DNA of 64,000 bases, taken from the IMG/VR virus record IMGVR_UViG_3300020451_002055; one strand, 5' to 3'. Numbering within the stretch: position 1 is the stretch's first letter; every line of letters starts with the position of its first letter. Shown here piece by piece: positions 28,313 to 44,025 of this stretch. Source of the DNA: a virus (taxonomy: Duplodnaviria > Heunggongvirae > Uroviricota > Caudoviricetes). The notes under the pieces are model-generated. The model was not told the DNA's origin and ran no database searches. It saw only the letters and a program-made list of their open reading frames with translations. The position numbers and the translations under genes are program-made.

Positions 28313-28663
28313 TCAGTCAGATGCGTTTCTGATTTCAAGAACAGATTGAGGCGTAACCTTCTCGCCTCGTTCACGCAACTCTTCAACGACCTCAGAACAG
28401 AGAGGGCAAACGGGATTGAAGAATCCTTCGCCTTTCTCGTCGGGAATGACAGAGTTCAGATCGTTGTCGATTTCATGACCGCCGTAAGGAGTCCTGCAGA
28501 CAATACACGGACCCCATTCGTAGCCATGGCTCTGAGCATATACGCGATGACGCCAGCGAGGTTCATAGTTGTCAGGTTCGCTCCTGATGAACCCAATACC
28601 TGGGATAGCAGCAGCCATAAAAAGGATCAAGACAACCAAGATGACCTGTAGCGTTCGTCTCAT
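28313..28663 (-). CDS. small exported Cys-rich protein
   Basis: N-terminal signal/TM segment; CIVCRTPYGGHE ... CPLCSEVV. Confidence 0.45.
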   Translation of the reverse strand: MRRTLQVILVVLILFMAAAIPGIGFIRSEPDNYEPRWRHRVYAQSHGYEWGPCIVCRTPYGGHEIDNDLNSVIPDEKGEGFFNPVCPLCSEVVEELRERGEKVTPQSVLEIRNASD

Positions 28664-29478
28664 GCAGTCTGCGCTTTCTTTCTCGCCCGAGCGGTACGCT
28701 CATAATCCTCGTATCGGATTTTGGCGATGAACGACCGATCTTTTGCACGAACCACGATTCCTTCGGGAGTCATGTCCGCATTGCCGTCGAGGTTGCAGTG
28801 AGTCTGGTTGATCATGACCCGAAGCCATTGCAAACCGTCATGAACAGAGTCGGGCACTTTGGAAAGTTCGGAGGGCATTGACAGTCGAGGAGTCAAATCC
28901 CATCCGAGTTCGCTAGCAATGGCCTGCAGCCGATCCTCATCAACGAACGGCTGCATTCTTTGCGTCTCTCGCCAGGTCGAGATAGCTGATCGGTCCATCT
29001 TCATGATCTCGAACATCTCTGTCCGCGGCATTTCTATAGCATCGAACAGCCTGAATCCTCGATCTCCCGATCGGGTGTAGTTCTTGGCTGCCTTGCCGAT
29101 GCTGGTACCGTAAACCTCTCCGAACAGGACGACGAGATTATGCGTGCCCGAGAAATACTCGGTCGCGTCTTTCGCCTGATCTCTGATGGTCTCAACGATG
29201 TGCTGAGCCGGGTTGAAAACGACATCGCCGAGAGCATGCAGGAAGTCTTCTCTGCTGCCGATCAGCGTAACGTCATCGGGAGAGATAACGATCCGGGCGT
29301 TCGTTCCATCAACCTTCTCTGTGTAGACAAGATCACCATCGGGTACGTCTAGAAAAACATCATTGAGACGACCCTTATCCCCGATCTCATGAAACGTAGG
29401 GATCGAGGGATACTTGGTCATCGAGTTGAGGTGGGGCAGCTTTTCTTCTATGGACATGCTGGTCGTCTCCTGATACAA
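28660..29478 (-). CDS. ATP-dependent RNA ligase, Rnl2-like nucleotidyltransferase
   Basis: Motif I EKVDGTNARI (KxDGxN adenylation lysine), motif III LFGEVYG and motif IV/V EGIVVRAKD. Confidence 0.7.
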   Translation of the reverse strand: MYQETTSMSIEEKLPHLNSMTKYPSIPTFHEIGDKGRLNDVFLDVPDGDLVYTEKVDGTNARIVISPDDVTLIGSREDFLHALGDVVFNPAQHIVETIRDQAKDATEYFSGTHNLVVLFGEVYGTSIGKAAKNYTRSGDRGFRLFDAIEMPRTEMFEIMKMDRSAISTWRETQRMQPFVDEDRLQAIASELGWDLTPRLSMPSELSKVPDSVHDGLQWLRVMINQTHCNLDGNADMTPEGIVVRAKDRSFIAKIRYEDYERTARARKKAQTA

Positions 29479-29690
29479 AAGTATTCGATGGTCATTCCAG
29501 TCAAGCAGATGAAGATGCGCAGGTACATGATGACGGCAAATACAAGGGCAAGAACGATGCCGCCCAAGGCCGCCAGAATAATTGCGAACGGCATGAAGAG
29601 CTTGTCTGCAACGCTTGGCATGACCTGACTCCTTGACTGCTCATCTATCCATCCAACGCTCGAACACTCTATCAACGTATATGACCGCAT
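29448..29690 (-). CDS. small membrane protein
   Basis: 80 aa with one TM; overlaps its neighbours, so coding status is uncertain. Confidence 0.3.
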   Translation of the reverse strand: MRSYTLIECSSVGWIDEQSRSQVMPSVADKLFMPFAIILAALGGIVLALVFAVIMYLRIFICLTGMTIEYFCIRRRPACP

Positions 29691-30384
29691 GAATCAAGAG
29701 GTCATACAGGAAGTGGACGATGATAGCCGCCGGAAGTCCAAAAGCAAAGGCGACATAGAAGAGGTAAAGGCCGATATACCAACTGTTGATGACGCCAATG
29801 ATGCCCAGGTACTTGTGACCATCTCGGAACTTTGCGTTAGCCGACAGGATAGCCGCTCCGATAACCCAACCCATACCGAGCATCAGGTCTCGGGCCGCTC
29901 CGAACGTCATGAAGGTAGCAAGAGGTCCGAAGATGGTCAGATGCAGCCATTTGATCGGACCCATCCATCCGTCAACAAAGCCCAAGAAGAGCCAGTTGAC
30001 GAACTGAACGCCGATGGTTGCCGACAGGAAGAGAGCCCAACGGAAACAGATTTCCTCGAAGAAACCTGCCGCTGCAGAACTCCAAAAGCCCTTGACCATA
30101 TGGCCTTCCGCGTCTTCATTGAGGATGCGATTGTTTTTGGTTAGGATCGCAACGACTGCGGTAAAGCCTCCGCCCCACAAGAAGATGGGCCATGCATGCA
30201 TGATCCCGCTTTTGATGTCGATCTCTGAGAAGAAGTCGAACATCCCGACTGGCAGATGTTCATCAAACCAGATCGATATGATCGCAAAGAAAATCAGGCA
30301 AAAGATTGAGGTTGAGATCATCGCCCCAACAGCATCAACCTGCGATGCCTTCTTCTCAGTGATAAACGGTAAGCGAATCTTCAT
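29641..30384 (-). CDS. CPBP-family (CAAX/Abi, PF02517-like) intramembrane metalloprotease
   Basis: EEICFRW (EExxxR) and HFLYDLLIH (HxxxD) motifs in a polytopic membrane protein. Confidence 0.6.
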   Translation of the reverse strand: MKIRLPFITEKKASQVDAVGAMISTSIFCLIFFAIISIWFDEHLPVGMFDFFSEIDIKSGIMHAWPIFLWGGGFTAVVAILTKNNRILNEDAEGHMVKGFWSSAAAGFFEEICFRWALFLSATIGVQFVNWLFLGFVDGWMGPIKWLHLTIFGPLATFMTFGAARDLMLGMGWVIGAAILSANAKFRDGHKYLGIIGVINSWYIGLYLFYVAFAFGLPAAIIVHFLYDLLIHAVIYVDRVFERWMDR

Positions 30385-42039: not shown

Positions 42040-42854
42040 CTATCCGATCGAACCTTCAGCGACCCGCTTTTTAGCAGGCTGAGTCGCTTCTGTCCTTCAT
42101 CGGCATAGGGCTCATATAGTTCCATACATACACATCTTCGCTCATGTATGGCAGCAGCAACTCCTGTTGTGCATGATCCTGCAAACGGGTCAACAACCAT
42201 GTCTCCTTTGTTGGACAAAGACAGTATCAAGGTACCCGCTAGTTCGACAGGAAACTGGCAAGGATGACTCGTCTTTTCTACATGATTATGCTTGACATTA
42301 GGTATGGGCCATACATCCCCAGGATTTGCTCCGAGAGGATTACTGCTTAGCTGCCCCTTCTTCGGCCCTTTGTAGTACTTCTTGCCCGGATACTTCTGAG
42401 GGACTCGAACAGGATCAAGATTGTAGGTGAAATCGTCCGATTTGCTCCACCATAGAATAGTCTCATGGCGACCTGAGAATCGGTTAGAGCAATGAAGTCC
42501 GTGAGAGAATGTCCATACTATGCGATTGCGGAGCTTGAATCCGAGGTCTTTGAATATCGGATAGAAGATGCAATCAAGAGGAACTACCTCTGTTGAACCT
42601 TTTTCTTTCTCGATGCTATTCCCAACCTGCCAGCAAATACTGCCTGTAGGAGAAAGAACTCGATAGCATTCCCTTATGATCGATGATTGCCAATCAAGGT
42701 ACGCATCTAGAGTCTGCGTGTCTTCATACTCTTTGCCTACATTGTAGGGAGGCGATGTGAGAACAAGCTGAACCGAACTGTCTTCAAGCTCGGCCAGCCC
42801 GTCTTCGCATTTGCCTCGGTAGATTTCAGTTTGACTGGTATCAATGAACATCAA
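42024..42854 (-). CDS. DNA methyltransferase, beta class (N6-adenine or N4-cytosine)
   Basis: Motif IV LTSPPYN precedes motif I VVDPFAGSCTTG. Confidence 0.8.
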   Translation of the reverse strand: MMFIDTSQTEIYRGKCEDGLAELEDSSVQLVLTSPPYNVGKEYEDTQTLDAYLDWQSSIIRECYRVLSPTGSICWQVGNSIEKEKGSTEVVPLDCIFYPIFKDLGFKLRNRIVWTFSHGLHCSNRFSGRHETILWWSKSDDFTYNLDPVRVPQKYPGKKYYKGPKKGQLSSNPLGANPGDVWPIPNVKHNHVEKTSHPCQFPVELAGTLILSLSNKGDMVVDPFAGSCTTGVAAAIHERRCVCMELYEPYADEGQKRLSLLKSGSLKVRSDRWKGS

Positions 42855-43213
42855 GTGATACTGTTGAGCGAGACGTATATCCCGTCGAAGTCCTCAATCT
42901 CATGGATAGCGGCATCGATCATGTCTTCGACATCGCTGATTGCGTCGATGAGTTCCATCGCATTGCTGATCTGAGTCTTAGGTCGAATGCCGATCTCAAG
43001 AACCGGAAGCGATATCTCGCCGCCGACAGTAGCCGAAGCAGGATCGACTTCGAGGTCGATATTGTTCCACTTCTGCTCTGAAACAAACTCGGCAAGATCG
43101 GTAGCGATCTGTCGAGCAAGGGCGTTTGCTTGCTCTTGATTCCTATCCTTGAACGCGACAACGATCTTGTTGCCTCTCTCGTAGCAGAAAATGTCATTCA
43201 GATGCTTAGCCAT
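42851..43213 (-). CDS. hypothetical protein
   Basis: 120-aa acidic ORF. Confidence 0.45.
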   Translation of the reverse strand: MAKHLNDIFCYERGNKIVVAFKDRNQEQANALARQIATDLAEFVSEQKWNNIDLEVDPASATVGGEISLPVLEIGIRPKTQISNAMELIDAISDVEDMIDAAIHEIEDFDGIYVSLNSIT

Positions 43214-43359
43214 GCGTGCCTCGAATATACCGGAGAAATCTCTTCATAGGGCTCATCTTTGGGGCTCTCATCGGAGGCCCAACGCTGAGTGCCTGACGAC
43301 CCTCAAAAGTTAGTTCCATCTGAAAGCACCTGATAGCGCTACCCGGAGGAGAAATCTCT

Positions 43360-44025
43360 TTAACTCGCTTGATGTATCTGCTCTGCATGCTGCGGTCTCA
43401 GGTGGCTAGTCAAATCAAGACGATCAGCAACAAGCTTCACGATCCCATCCCAGTCGTCATAAGGCATAACGATGTAGCTGTCACTTCCAACGTACAGATC
43501 AAGCAGGCTGCGAATGTAGTCATCCATCCTTCGGGCCTTGTCTTCGTTTTCATATCTTCCCTTACCTACATACGGTCTGTCGCCTCGATCAAGAAAGATA
43601 TGCAAACCCGGATAGGCTTCCTCATGAAGCTCTGCAAGCGAAATGAGAGAGTTGAAGGTTTTGCTATGATACTTGCGGGCATACGCTGCTCCGAGGAATA
43701 GCGGCGAGTCGGTAAAGACATGCTGGACGCCAGCCCTTAGAGGTATCTCTTCCTTTCTCTGCTGATTTGCAAAGATGAAGACCTGATCGAATCCTTGCGG
43801 ACTGCGACCTTCCCATGCCCATTCCTTGACAAACTCTTGGATAAGCTCAAACTGAACATCAACAGAGCTATCGACACACATCCTCTTGAACTCTGCGAAC
43901 AAGTCAGATGCAGTTGTACTCTTGCCTGTTCCGGGTCCGCCATACAAGTTGATTCTTCTGATATCAGAACTCAATGCTGTACCTCTTCCTTTTACTCTTT
44001 GCGTAATCGCTTTCTTTGATGACAA
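43360..44025 (-). CDS. P-loop kinase (nucleotide or polynucleotide 5'-kinase-like)
   Basis: Walker A LYGGPGTGKSTTASD at the N-terminus; 221 aa. Confidence 0.55.
   Translation of the reverse strand: MSSKKAITQRVKGRGTALSSDIRRINLYGGPGTGKSTTASDLFAEFKRMCVDSSVDVQFELIQEFVKEWAWEGRSPQGFDQVFIFANQQRKEEIPLRAGVQHVFTDSPLFLGAAYARKYHSKTFNSLISLAELHEEAYPGLHIFLDRGDRPYVGKGRYENEDKARRMDDYIRSLLDLYVGSDSYIVMPYDDWDGIVKLVADRLDLTSHLRPQHAEQIHQAS

What the first reader, a model, noticed from the sequence alone, without database searches (positions are those of the whole stretch)
28660..44025. Distributed RNA-repair / tRNA toolkit: RtcB, Rnl2-like ligase, TilS, tRNA-Gly, Nudix, P-loop kinase and a metallophosphatase
The window encodes both healing-and-sealing chemistries. 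RtcB joins 3'-P or 2',3'-cyclic-phosphate ends to 5'-OH ends. The Rnl2-like ligase (EKVDGTNARI) joins 5'-P to 3'-OH ends. A P-loop kinase (GGPGTGKST, 43360..44025) and a calcineurin-type phosphoesterase (415..1059) could provide end-healing, as in the kinase/metallophosphatase/ligase arrangement of bacterial Pnkp. Together with tilS and a tRNA-Gly(UCC) at 60435, this looks like a counter-measure against host anticodon nucleases (PrrC, RloC, VapC-type tRNases) and a way to reprogramme decoding.
Basis: partly seen in the sequence, partly recalled or inferred. Interest (0 to 1): 0.6.

Follow-up and report, generated by a model that had tools for sequence, protein, structure and literature searches.

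The report
Huge-phage RNA ligases, TilS and tRNAs

Summary
RtcB (38726-40006) has all its catalytic residues. The RNA-ligase-family protein (28660-29457) is a 265-aa stand-alone nucleotidyltransferase closest to T4 Rnl2, without Rnl2's C-terminal domain. TilS (40425-41429) passes NCBI's TilS N-domain cut-off and keeps the TilS motifs. tRNA-Gly(UCC) is real.

The predicted TilS substrate exists. A CAU tRNA, 82% identical to E. coli tRNA-Ile2 and 64% to tRNA-Met, lies in a nine-tRNA array 0.3-2.8 kb beyond the window's left edge.

The Pnkp-like "healing" part fails. The P-loop kinase is an AAA_28, NadR-ribosylnicotinamide-kinase-like small-molecule kinase that shares only the P-loop with T4 Pnk. 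It stays close to a dCMP deaminase in seven related loci. The Nudix is of the ADP-ribose/ADP-sugar pyrophosphatase type. The metallophosphatase is 27 kb or more from both ligases, and its link to tRNA genes is weak.

The named genes are scattered among about 30 unrelated ORFs on the same strand. The ligase genes have no conserved healing partner, here or in relatives.

The concept (jumbo phages carrying RtcB, Rnl, tRNAs) is published, and phage TilS has been reported. Verdict: a new member of a known kind, of modest interest.

The parts
38726..40006 (-). RtcB RNA ligase (426 aa). It joins 3'-P or 2',3'-cyclic-P ends to 5'-OH ends.
   Evidence: PF01139 352 bits over the full model; phrog_1075 E 2e-113. 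Aligned with P. horikoshii RtcB (1uc2): MPDAH, GVDIGCG, GGGNHF, HSGSRG, IHHN and SHGSGR match the metal-binding and GMP-histidine positions as I recall them for PH1602. Homologs occur in 708 phage records at up to 44% identity.
28660..29457 (-). Stand-alone Rnl2-like RNA-ligase-family nucleotidyltransferase (265 aa, P0130)
   Evidence: PF09414 E 5e-16 and phrog_548. 681 homologs of about 260 aa. Invariant K48 (motif I, EKVDGTN), E114 (motif III), E232-G233 (motif IV) and K246/R248 (motif V). AlphaFold2 model pLDDT 92.9; best PDB matches are T4 Rnl2 (E 5e-9), Naegleria NgrRnl and archaeal Rnl3. There is no C-terminal Rnl2 domain.
40425..41429 (-). TilS, tRNA(Ile)-lysidine synthetase, short type (334 aa, P0124)
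   Evidence: TIGR02432 154 bits against a cut-off of 93.6. The SGGVDS PP-loop and the HHADDQLET, RGSG, IRPML, PWHEDVTN and RNRLRH motifs align with E. coli, Geobacillus and Aquifex TilS structures. K04075 in the Tara annotation. The nearest named cellular homologs are short Planctomycetota TilS proteins.
60435..60506 (+). tRNA-Gly(UCC); no encoded CCA end
   Evidence: ARAGORN; Rfam RF00005 73.6 bits; sequence read. GGA makes up 25.5% of Gly codons in the window.
43360..43974 (-). AAA_28 (NadR-RNK-like) nucleoside/nucleotide kinase, 204 aa (P0001). It is not a polynucleotide kinase and is not part of the RNA set.
   Evidence: PF13521; phrog_2107 'thymidylate kinase'. Foldseek best matches are TMPK, NadR and dCK, with no Pnk in the best 50. 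hhalign gives 22 columns with T4 Pnk, 150 columns with E. coli NadR (probability 81%) and probability 9% with Tmk. It lies one to three genes upstream of the dCMP deaminase in L006-L011.
41404..42027 (-). dCMP deaminase (207 aa). It overlaps the TilS start by 26 nt. Nucleotide metabolism.
   Evidence: PF00383; phrog_174 E 3e-32; K01493. HAERNAL and PCNPC motifs. A deaminase precedes TilS in all six related IMG/VR loci, directly in four of them.
37646..38272 (-). Nudix hydrolase of the ADP-ribose/ADP-sugar pyrophosphatase type (208 aa). It is not an RNA decapping enzyme.
   Evidence: PF00293. TIGR00052 YffH/AdpP scores 75.6 bits against a cut-off of 79.55; the RppH model reaches only E 0.006. 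K01515. Nudix box at 94-116 with a Pro 17 residues downstream. It follows RtcB in L006 and L008.
415..1059 (-). Calcineurin-type metallophosphoesterase (214 aa), substrate unknown. It is followed, outside the window, by a DUF7699 gene and the tRNA array.
   Evidence: PF00149 and phrog_1649 E 2e-25. 33 phage records carry homologs, mostly phages of Alphaproteobacteria. It is next to a tRNA nucleotidyltransferase and a tRNA array in S-CBWM1 and upstream of the array in this genome, but not in most other phages.

Best explanation
The window is part of a roughly 487-kb marine huge-phage genome (Tara Oceans scaffold). The finding's span is a long run of same-strand auxiliary genes in which three separate functions are interleaved.

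(1) Translation maintenance.
- RtcB directly reseals tRNA or rRNA breaks with 2',3'-cyclic-phosphate/3'-phosphate and 5'-OH ends. These are the products of anticodon nucleases and of many toxin RNases. RtcB needs no end-healing.
- A minimal Rnl2-like ligase seals 3'-OH/5'-phosphate nicks.
- TilS converts C34 of the phage's own tRNA-Ile2(CAU) to lysidine, so that AUA codons (16.6% of Ile codons in the window) are read as Ile. That tRNA sits in an array 0.3-2.8 kb beyond the window's left edge.
- tRNA-Gly(UCC) and the array supply further decoding capacity.

(2) Nucleotide and DNA metabolism: the AAA_28 kinase, the dCMP deaminase and three DNA methyltransferases.

(3) ADP-ribose handling: the Nudix hydrolase.

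Shown: gene identities, intact catalytic motifs, the existence of the candidate tRNA-Ile2, and the non-Pnk nature of the kinase.

Inferred: that the ligases act on cleaved tRNAs as counter-defence, and that TilS acts on the phage tRNA.
For: Source and viral nature:
- The exact proteins lie on ENA scaffold TARA_SAMEA2623826_METAG-scaffold_1, 486,833 bp.
- The closest relatives are IMG/VR viral contigs of 488 and 498 kb.
- The kinase family occurs almost only in phages larger than 100 kb.

RtcB: full-length PF01139 match, and the active-site residues align with PH1602.

Ligase: motifs I, III, IV and V are invariant across 30 homologs, and the model matches T4 Rnl2 best.

TilS: above the curated cut-off, and its motifs align with three solved TilS structures.

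Candidate substrate:
- A CAU tRNA lies at L110 13819-13892.
- Its best E. coli match is a PGAP-annotated tRNA-Ile with a CAU anticodon.
- It is 82.4% identical to that tRNA and 63.5% identical to metT/metU.
- It has C4-G69 and C5-G68 (metT/metU have U-A and A-U there), a G27.U43 pair, A37, A38 and A73. A1-U72 is paired, so it is not an initiator.

Codon usage: ATA is 16.6% of Ile codons and GGA is 25.5% of Gly codons.

The general model (jumbo phages combine RtcB, Rnl1/Rnl2 and tRNAs against host attacks on translation) is published: Iyer et al. 2021, PMC7824862.
Against: - No experiment shows that any phage RtcB or this ligase family repairs tRNA.
- The host, and therefore its nucleases and codon usage, is unknown.
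- The ligase lacks the C-terminal domain that, from my knowledge of the Rnl2 literature, T4 Rnl2 needs for the adenylate-transfer step of nick sealing. Its motif V is K-x-R rather than K-x-K. Its substrate could therefore differ.
- Neither ligase has a conserved partner gene. The ligase has no recurring neighbour in 20 viral loci or 3 bacterial loci, and RtcB is solitary in three other phages.
- No structural phage gene lies in the window, so the viral assignment rests on relatives and on gene content.
Confidence: 0.62

Rival explanations
1. [quoted passage not shown] Together with RtcB this forms one coordinated anti-anticodon-nuclease system.
For: - The Rnl2-like ligase needs 5'-P/3'-OH ends, and no other healing enzyme was found in the window.
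- The phosphatase gene lies upstream of the phage tRNA array.
- A homolog sits beside a tRNA nucleotidyltransferase and a tRNA array in Synechococcus phage S-CBWM1, and 1.4 kb from a 'poly(A) polymerase' in DSS3P8.
- A kinase homolog abuts a tRNA array in Caulobacter phage CcrBL9.
Against: - The kinase is AAA_28/NadR-RNK-like, shares only the P-loop with T4 Pnk, and has no Pnk among its 50 best structural matches.
- In seven loci the kinase stays next to a dCMP deaminase, not a ligase.
- The phosphatase is 27 kb or more from both ligases. tRNAs lie near it in only 3 of 13 loci examined.
- The ligase family has no recurring kinase or phosphatase neighbour.
Confidence: 0.08
2. The kinase and the Nudix hydrolase belong to NAD+/ADP-ribose metabolism. 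The kinase would make NMN from nicotinamide riboside, and the Nudix would clear ADP-ribose. This would be a counter-measure to NAD-depleting or ADPr-signalling defence, and has nothing to do with RNA ends.
For: - hhalign aligns 150 columns with the ribosylnicotinamide kinase domain of E. coli NadR, and NadR gives the highest TM-score, 0.64.
- JGI names for homologs are 'nicotinamide riboside kinase'.
- The Nudix is of the ADP-ribose pyrophosphatase type.
- A YAcAr (SLOG) gene lies just beyond the right edge.
- Such systems are described for jumbo phages (PMC7824862).
Against: - No NMN adenylyltransferase or Nampt was found in the ORFs scanned in the window.
- The kinase's conserved neighbour is a dCMP deaminase, which points to deoxynucleotide metabolism.
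- Phage annotations call the family thymidylate kinase.
Confidence: 0.2
3. The conserved kinase - dCMP deaminase - TilS-like block is a pathway that modifies a pyrimidine nucleotide or DNA base (adenylation and amination at C2), not tRNA.
For: - The deaminase precedes TilS in all six related viral loci at only 32-38% TilS identity, and the two genes overlap in several of them. The kinase lies one to three genes upstream of the deaminase.
- Three DNA methyltransferases flank the block in the window.
Against: - All TilS-specific motifs are kept, and the curated TilS cut-off is passed.
- A cognate tRNA-Ile2-like gene is present.
- The pairing is absent from the other phages with TilS, RsoM2USA and PA5oct.
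- Other genes with no obvious functional link (DUF6065) are equally syntenic, so shared ancestry explains the order.
Confidence: 0.03
4. RtcB serves maturation rather than repair. It would ligate the exons of an insertion-containing tRNA-like gene in the phage tRNA-Leu block.
For: - A 109-nt element at L110 11493-11601 matches the full Rfam tRNA model at 35.9 bits, with a perfect acceptor stem and T arm and about 35 extra nucleotides.
- ARAGORN in intron mode calls it tRNA(CUA) with a 35-nt intron.
Against: - The predicted intron position is non-canonical, and the predicted anticodon stem has an A.G mismatch.
- A class-II parse places the 'CUA' in the loop of a six-pair variable arm (sequence and fold read).
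- No splicing endonuclease was seen.
- TAG is an ordinary stop codon in the window.
- No relative of the element was found, so covariation could not be tested.
Confidence: 0.05

Closest known systems
Jumbo-phage RNA-repair and tRNA provisioning sets (Iyer, Anantharaman, Krishnan, Burroughs & Aravind 2021, Viruses 13:63, PMC7824862)
   Same: A very large phage genome with RtcB, an Rnl2-type ATP-dependent ligase and its own tRNAs. [quoted passage not shown]
   Different: No Pnk, HAD or 2H phosphoesterase, RlaP nucleotidyltransferase or cRec partner was found within the 64 kb scanned. The ligase is a minimal 265-aa form. TilS is not mentioned in that paper (0 occurrences).
Phage T4 Pnkp + Rnl1 repair of PrrC-cleaved tRNA-Lys (textbook heal-and-seal)
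   Same: The proposed purpose is the same: to reverse host anticodon-nuclease damage with phage ligases.
   Different: T4 uses a fused kinase-phosphatase (Pnkp) plus Rnl1. Here the only kinase shares just the P-loop with T4 Pnk. No DxDxT phosphatase was seen among the span's unassigned ORFs (motif scan). The likely sealing enzyme for such breaks is RtcB, which needs no healing.
T4 Rnl2 (gp24.1) and Naegleria NgrRnl (Rnl5)
   Same: The covalent nucleotidyltransferase fold, motif I EK(I/V)xGTN, and the N-terminal KY(S/P)S...H segment. These are the best structural matches.
   Different: It lacks the Rnl2 C-terminal helical domain and the Rnl5 N-terminal OB domain. Motif V is K-x-R. It belongs to a large uncharacterised family of about 260-aa proteins that also occurs in Planctomycetota, Myxococcota and Nocardia.
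TilS of Pseudomonas jumbo phages MIJ3 and PA5oct (PMC6892783, PMC7318152)
   Same: A phage-encoded TilS homolog of unknown role. It is transcribed during PA5oct infection.
   Different: The PA5oct gene is annotated as only 203 aa, the N-domain. The protein here is 334 aa, the same length as short cellular TilS proteins. It comes with a candidate cognate tRNA-Ile2(CAU) in the same genome.
NadR ribosylnicotinamide kinase domain / thymidylate kinases
   Same: The kinase is assigned to Pfam AAA_28, aligns over the whole kinase domain of E. coli NadR, and matches TMPK/NadR/dCK structures.
   Different: It is a stand-alone 204-aa protein with no NMNAT domain. Its substrate is unknown. Its conserved neighbour is a dCMP deaminase.

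Membership tests
RtcB (3'-phosphate/5'-OH RNA ligase) | Full-length match to the RtcB fold/profile | tested here: met
   PF01139 352 bits, model positions 1-426 of 426.
RtcB (3'-phosphate/5'-OH RNA ligase) | Metal-binding Asp/Cys/His residues and the GMP-accepting histidine | tested here: met
   The alignment to P. horikoshii RtcB 1uc2 conserves MPDxH, DIxCG, GNHF, HxGSRG, HN and HGxGR. The residue roles are taken from my knowledge of PH1602.
Rnl2 family RNA ligase | Nucleotidyltransferase motifs I, III, IIIa, IV, V with the motif I lysine | tested here: met
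   K48, E114, F138/D139, E232-G233 and K246 are invariant or nearly invariant in 30 homologs. Motif V is K-x-R, not K-x-K. T4 Rnl2 is the best PDB match.
Rnl2 family RNA ligase | Signature C-terminal domain | tested here: not met
   The protein ends about 15 residues after motif V. The model has only one C-terminal helix, residues 249-264. NCBIfam listed no family for this protein at E <= 0.01.
TilS (tRNA-Ile lysidine synthetase) | PP-loop SGGxDS and the TilS N-domain profile above the curated cut-off | tested here: met
   TIGR02432 154.4 bits against 93.6; SGGVDS.
TilS (tRNA-Ile lysidine synthetase) | TilS-specific motifs beyond the PP-loop (HHxDDQxET, RPhL, WxED.(S/T)N, RNRhR) | tested here: met
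   All align with E. coli 1ni5, Geobacillus 3a2k and Aquifex 1wy5.
TilS (tRNA-Ile lysidine synthetase) | A cognate tRNA-Ile2 with a CAU anticodon is available | tested here: met
   A CAU tRNA at L110 13819-13892 on the same scaffold is 82.4% identical to E. coli tRNA-Ile2 and 63.5% to tRNA-Met, with C4-G69 and C5-G68. The assignment is by similarity only.
TilS (tRNA-Ile lysidine synthetase) | Lysidine formation at C34 | not testable with these tools
   This needs an in vitro assay or mass spectrometry of the tRNA.
Pnkp-type polynucleotide kinase (T4 Pnk / bacterial Pnkp / Clp1) | Kinase domain homologous to Pnk beyond the P-loop | tested here: not met
   hhalign against T4 Pnk residues 1-154 aligns only 22 P-loop columns (the T4 sequence was checked). 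No Pnk appears among the 50 best Foldseek matches. Pfam gives AAA_28 only.
Pnkp-type polynucleotide kinase (T4 Pnk / bacterial Pnkp / Clp1) | Fused or adjacent 3'-phosphatase and ligase | tested here: not met
   The kinase's neighbours are DNA methyltransferases and a dCMP deaminase. The phosphatase is 42 kb away and the ligase 14 kb away.
NadR-type ribosylnicotinamide kinase (AAA_28) | Profile and fold match over the whole kinase domain | tested here: met
   PF13521 E 1e-12. hhalign covers 150 columns with probability 81%. NadR structures give TM 0.62-0.64.
NadR-type ribosylnicotinamide kinase (AAA_28) | Nicotinamide riboside as substrate, or an associated NMNAT | tested here: inconclusive
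   No NMNAT was found in the ORFs scanned in the window. Only 64 kb of about 487 kb was visible. The substrate cannot be tested.
ADP-ribose pyrophosphatase subfamily of Nudix | Nudix box plus the YffH/AdpP subfamily profile | tested here: inconclusive
   The Nudix box is present. TIGR00052 scores 75.6 bits, just under its 79.55 cut-off. The Tara annotation gives K01515.

The most novel reading that the evidence does not exclude
The 109-nt tRNA-like gene inside the phage's tRNA-Leu block (L110 11493-11601, about 0.4-0.5 kb beyond the window's left edge) would be a tRNA interrupted by a roughly 35-nt protein-spliced intron. ARAGORN's intron mode reads it as an amber-suppressor tRNA(CUA). The phage RtcB would be its splicing ligase, so that the phage controls maturation of a special tRNA. 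Protein-dependent tRNA splicing is, to my knowledge, not known for bacteriophages.
Probability: 0.04. Interest if true: 0.8.

Novelty: new member of a known kind. Interest (0 to 1): 0.3.

Why it matters
It adds a marine huge phage of about 487 kb, possibly infecting Planctomycetota to judge from its nearest TilS and ligase homologs, to the phages that carry RtcB, an Rnl2-type ligase and tRNAs.

It also pairs a full-length phage TilS with a phage-encoded tRNA-Ile2(CAU). That gives a concrete and testable reason for the so far unexplained TilS genes of jumbo phages: AUA decoding that does not depend on the host.

It removes three genes (kinase, Nudix, phosphatase) from the supposed repair kit. 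This prevents a misleading 'split Pnkp' annotation of a kinase family that is widespread in jumbo phages.

Tried and rejected
- Megablast of 28-45 kb against 50,697 phage records found no match, so no close cultured relative exists.
- I looked for healing enzymes in the window. Pfam, PHROG or NCBIfam scans of about 50 ORFs found no Pnk, HAD, 2H, HD or RlaP family. A motif scan of the span's unassigned ORFs found no DxDxT and nothing else suggestive.
- I looked for conserved neighbours of the ligase family. There were none in three bacterial genomes or in 20 viral loci.
- I looked for a general RtcB-Nudix link. It is absent in PHB04, pf16 and RSL1, so the adjacency seen in L006 and L008 is lineage synteny.
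- I looked for a general TilS-deaminase link. It is absent in RsoM2USA and PA5oct.
- I tested the metallophosphatase-tRNA link. It holds in 3 of 13 loci, which is too weak.
- A scan of IMG/VR for tRNA-Ile2-like anticodon arms gave at least 120 loci, many at contig ends. It said nothing about relatives.
- A scan for the 3' end of the 109-nt tRNA-like element gave no match, so covariation could not be tested.
- The promoter and terminator scan of 28-46 kb found no more sites than chance would give.
- Stop-codon recoding was tested and rejected for the window.
- A sequence search of the PDB with the kinase, the ligase and the phosphatase gave only marginal hits. Structure prediction was needed for the first two.

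Full report
**What the window is.** Nearly all genes between about 10.8 and 57.6 kb lie on the minus strand and are tightly packed. Proteins from the window are found, residue for residue, on ENA scaffold TARA_SAMEA2623826_METAG-scaffold_1 (486,833 bp, Tara Oceans). No cultured phage matches at the DNA level. The nearest relatives of the TilS gene are IMG/VR viral contigs of 488 and 498 kb, plus several of 28-123 kb. The kinase family is found almost only in phages larger than 100 kb. A tRNA array lies just outside the window. I therefore treat the sequence as part of a marine huge phage. The caveat is that no virion gene lies inside the 64 kb.

**Observation check.** All seven named features are real.
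- RtcB (38726-40006, -) matches PF01139 over the whole model at 352 bits. When aligned with P. horikoshii RtcB, it keeps the segments that in PH1602 hold the metal-binding Asp/Cys/His residues and the GMP-accepting His, as I recall them.
- The ligase (called gene 28660-29457, -, 265 aa) matches PF09414 and phrog_548.
- TilS (40425-41429, -) scores 154 bits on TIGR02432 against a cut-off of 93.6. It aligns with three solved TilS structures through the PP-loop and the HHxDDQxET, RPML, WxEDxTN and RNRLR motifs.
- The Nudix gene is at 37646-38272.
- The P-loop protein is at 43360-43974.
- The metallophosphoesterase is at 415-1059.
- tRNA-Gly(UCC) is at 60435-60506 (+).

**The ligase.** It belongs to a family of at least 681 proteins of about 260 aa. 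The family occurs in metagenomes and in Planctomycetota, Myxococcota and Nocardia. Thirty members share invariant motif I (EKVDGTN, K48), motif III (E114), motif IV (E232-G233) and motif V. Motif V reads A-K-I-R, that is K246 and R248. A confident model (pLDDT 92.9) matches the T4 Rnl2 nucleotidyltransferase domain best (E 5e-9). Naegleria NgrRnl and archaeal Rnl3 follow. The protein has neither the C-terminal domain of Rnl2 nor the N-terminal domain of Rnl5. "Rnl2-like" is therefore right for the fold and motifs, but the protein is not a canonical Rnl2. No kinase or phosphatase recurs next to this ligase in three bacterial genomes or in twenty viral loci.

**The kinase.**
- Pfam assigns only AAA_28, the family of the NadR ribosylnicotinamide kinase domain. 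PHROG calls it 'thymidylate kinase'.
- A confident model (pLDDT 92.7) matches thymidylate kinases, NadR (highest TM-score, 0.64) and deoxycytidine kinases. No polynucleotide kinase is among the best 50 matches.
- Profile comparison aligns only the 22 P-loop columns with T4 Pnk (the T4 sequence was verified). It aligns 150 columns across the kinase domain of E. coli NadR (probability 81%). The match with E. coli Tmk is weak (probability 9%).
- In all six related IMG/VR loci (L006-L011), as in the window, a homolog lies one to three genes upstream of a dCMP deaminase.

It is a small-molecule nucleoside or nucleotide kinase.

**The Nudix and the phosphatase.** The Nudix protein scores best on the YffH/AdpP ADP-sugar pyrophosphatase subfamily, at 75.6 bits against a cut-off of 79.55. 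It scores barely on RppH. The Tara annotation labels it K01515. It follows RtcB in the two relatives of roughly 490-500 kb, but not in three other RtcB phages.

The phosphatase belongs to a phage family found mostly in phages of Alphaproteobacteria. It has one suggestive property. In this genome it lies upstream of a DUF7699 gene and the tRNA array. In Synechococcus phage S-CBWM1 it lies beside a tRNA nucleotidyltransferase and a tRNA array. However, only 3 of 13 loci examined show tRNAs nearby. A role in tRNA end processing is therefore possible but unsupported.

**TilS and its substrate.** Phage TilS genes are rare. Only 35 of 50,697 records match, and most of those look like small unannotated or cellular sequences. 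They have been reported for MIJ3 and PA5oct without an explanation of their role.

I fetched the scaffold beyond the window's left edge (L110; window position = 11060 minus L110 position). It showed nine tRNAs on the same strand: five Leu isoacceptors, two Val, Ile(GAU) and a CAU tRNA. For the CAU tRNA:
- Its best E. coli match is a tRNA annotated as tRNA-Ile with a CAU anticodon.
- It is 82.4% identical to that tRNA and 63.5% identical to elongator tRNA-Met.
- It shares C4-G69 and C5-G68 with E. coli tRNA-Ile2, where tRNA-Met has U-A and A-U. As I recall the TilS literature, E. coli TilS uses these two pairs to tell the two tRNAs apart. It also shares G27.U43, the variable loop, A37, A38 and A73.
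- Its A1-U72 pair and its anticodon stem exclude an initiator.

AUA makes up 16.6% of Ile codons in the window. The simplest reading is a self-contained AUA-decoding pair. This is ordinary decoding support, not recoding. All three stop codons are used, and treating TAG as sense does not raise coding density.

**The conserved kinase - deaminase - TilS order.** A deaminase gene precedes TilS in all six related loci. The two genes overlap in several loci, and in four loci nothing lies between them. TilS identity across these loci is only 32-38%. This raised the idea of a nucleotide or DNA modification pathway. I rate it at about 3%, for four reasons. TilS keeps every tRNA-enzyme motif. A cognate tRNA exists. 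Two unrelated TilS phages lack the pairing. Other genes with no obvious functional link, such as DUF6065, are syntenic to the same degree.

**Comparison with what is known.** Iyer et al. [quoted passage not shown] Where ATP-dependent ligases are present, these phages also carry polynucleotide kinases and phosphoesterases. The authors interpret these as counter-measures to host attacks on the translation apparatus. The present locus fits that picture for RtcB, the ligase and the tRNAs. It lacks identifiable healing enzymes within the 64 kb visible to me. TilS paired with a tRNA-Ile2 is a small addition.

**Verdict.** The finding is a new member of a known kind, interest 0.3. The most novel reading still open is that the odd 109-nt tRNA-like gene in the Leu block is an intron-containing tRNA ligated by RtcB. 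I give that about 4%.

Noticed in passing
L110 11401-13892 (same scaffold; 0.34-2.83 kb beyond the window's left edge, window minus strand): An array of nine tRNAs grouped by amino acid: Leu UAG, CAA, GAG, CAG and UAA; Val UAC and GAC; Ile GAU; and a tRNA-Ile2-like CAU tRNA. It suggests a large tRNA complement in the rest of the genome.
   Followed up: yes
L110 11493-11601: A 109-nt tRNA-like element between two tRNA-Leu genes. It matches the full Rfam tRNA model at 35.9 bits, with a perfect acceptor stem and T arm and about 35 extra nucleotides. ARAGORN's intron mode calls it tRNA(CUA) with a 35-nt intron. An alternative class-II fold has a six-pair variable arm and an oversized anticodon arm. 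Its nature is unexplained.
   Followed up: partly
window 17460-23415 and 33422-35417 (-): At least ten neighbouring ORFs of 126-374 aa share a motif of the type M(L/I)T..GR(D/E)V.(V/Y)(P) and look like one expanded paralogous family. They have no Pfam or PHROG match.
   Followed up: no
window 41404-43974 and loci L006-L011: The order AAA_28 kinase, then one to three genes, then dCMP deaminase, then TilS is conserved across seven viral loci at 32-38% TilS identity. The deaminase stop and the TilS start often overlap.
   Followed up: partly
window 49305-51962 (-): A complete two-component set in a phage genome: a PAS-PAS-HisKA-HATPase sensor kinase (604 aa) followed by two stand-alone receiver-domain proteins (143 and 136 aa).
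   Followed up: no
window 42024-42851, 43964-44803, 44803-45552 (-): Three DNA methyltransferase genes (one N6_N4 type and two D12 type; one of the D12 genes matches only the N-terminal third of the model) surround the kinase.
   Followed up: no
window 46121-46723, 52553-55782, 55844-57585, 57607-58293, 9441-10250: Other host-like genes: a ClpP protease; a MoxR-like AAA ATPase with a DUF2201-type metallopeptidase partner; a ferritin/rubrerythrin protein next to a GH56 hyaluronidase-like protein; a uracil-DNA glycosylase family protein; and a Fic domain protein.
   Followed up: no
window 29641-30384 (-), next to the RNA ligase: A multi-pass membrane protein with EExxxR and FxxxH motifs that resemble CPBP (CAAX-type) intramembrane proteases. 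This was read by eye only; there is no profile hit.
   Followed up: no
L113 7093-8908 (beyond the window's right edge): Peptide deformylase and a YAcAr (SLOG) domain gene lie within 3 kb of the window's right edge. These are further translation-related and NAD-related auxiliaries.
   Followed up: no
proteins P0124 and P0130: The nearest named cellular homologs of both TilS (Phycisphaerae and other Planctomycetota MAGs) and the RNA ligase (Blastopirellula, Gimesia, Pirellulales, Gemmataceae) are planctomycetal. This is a weak hint about the host or the gene donor.
   Followed up: partly
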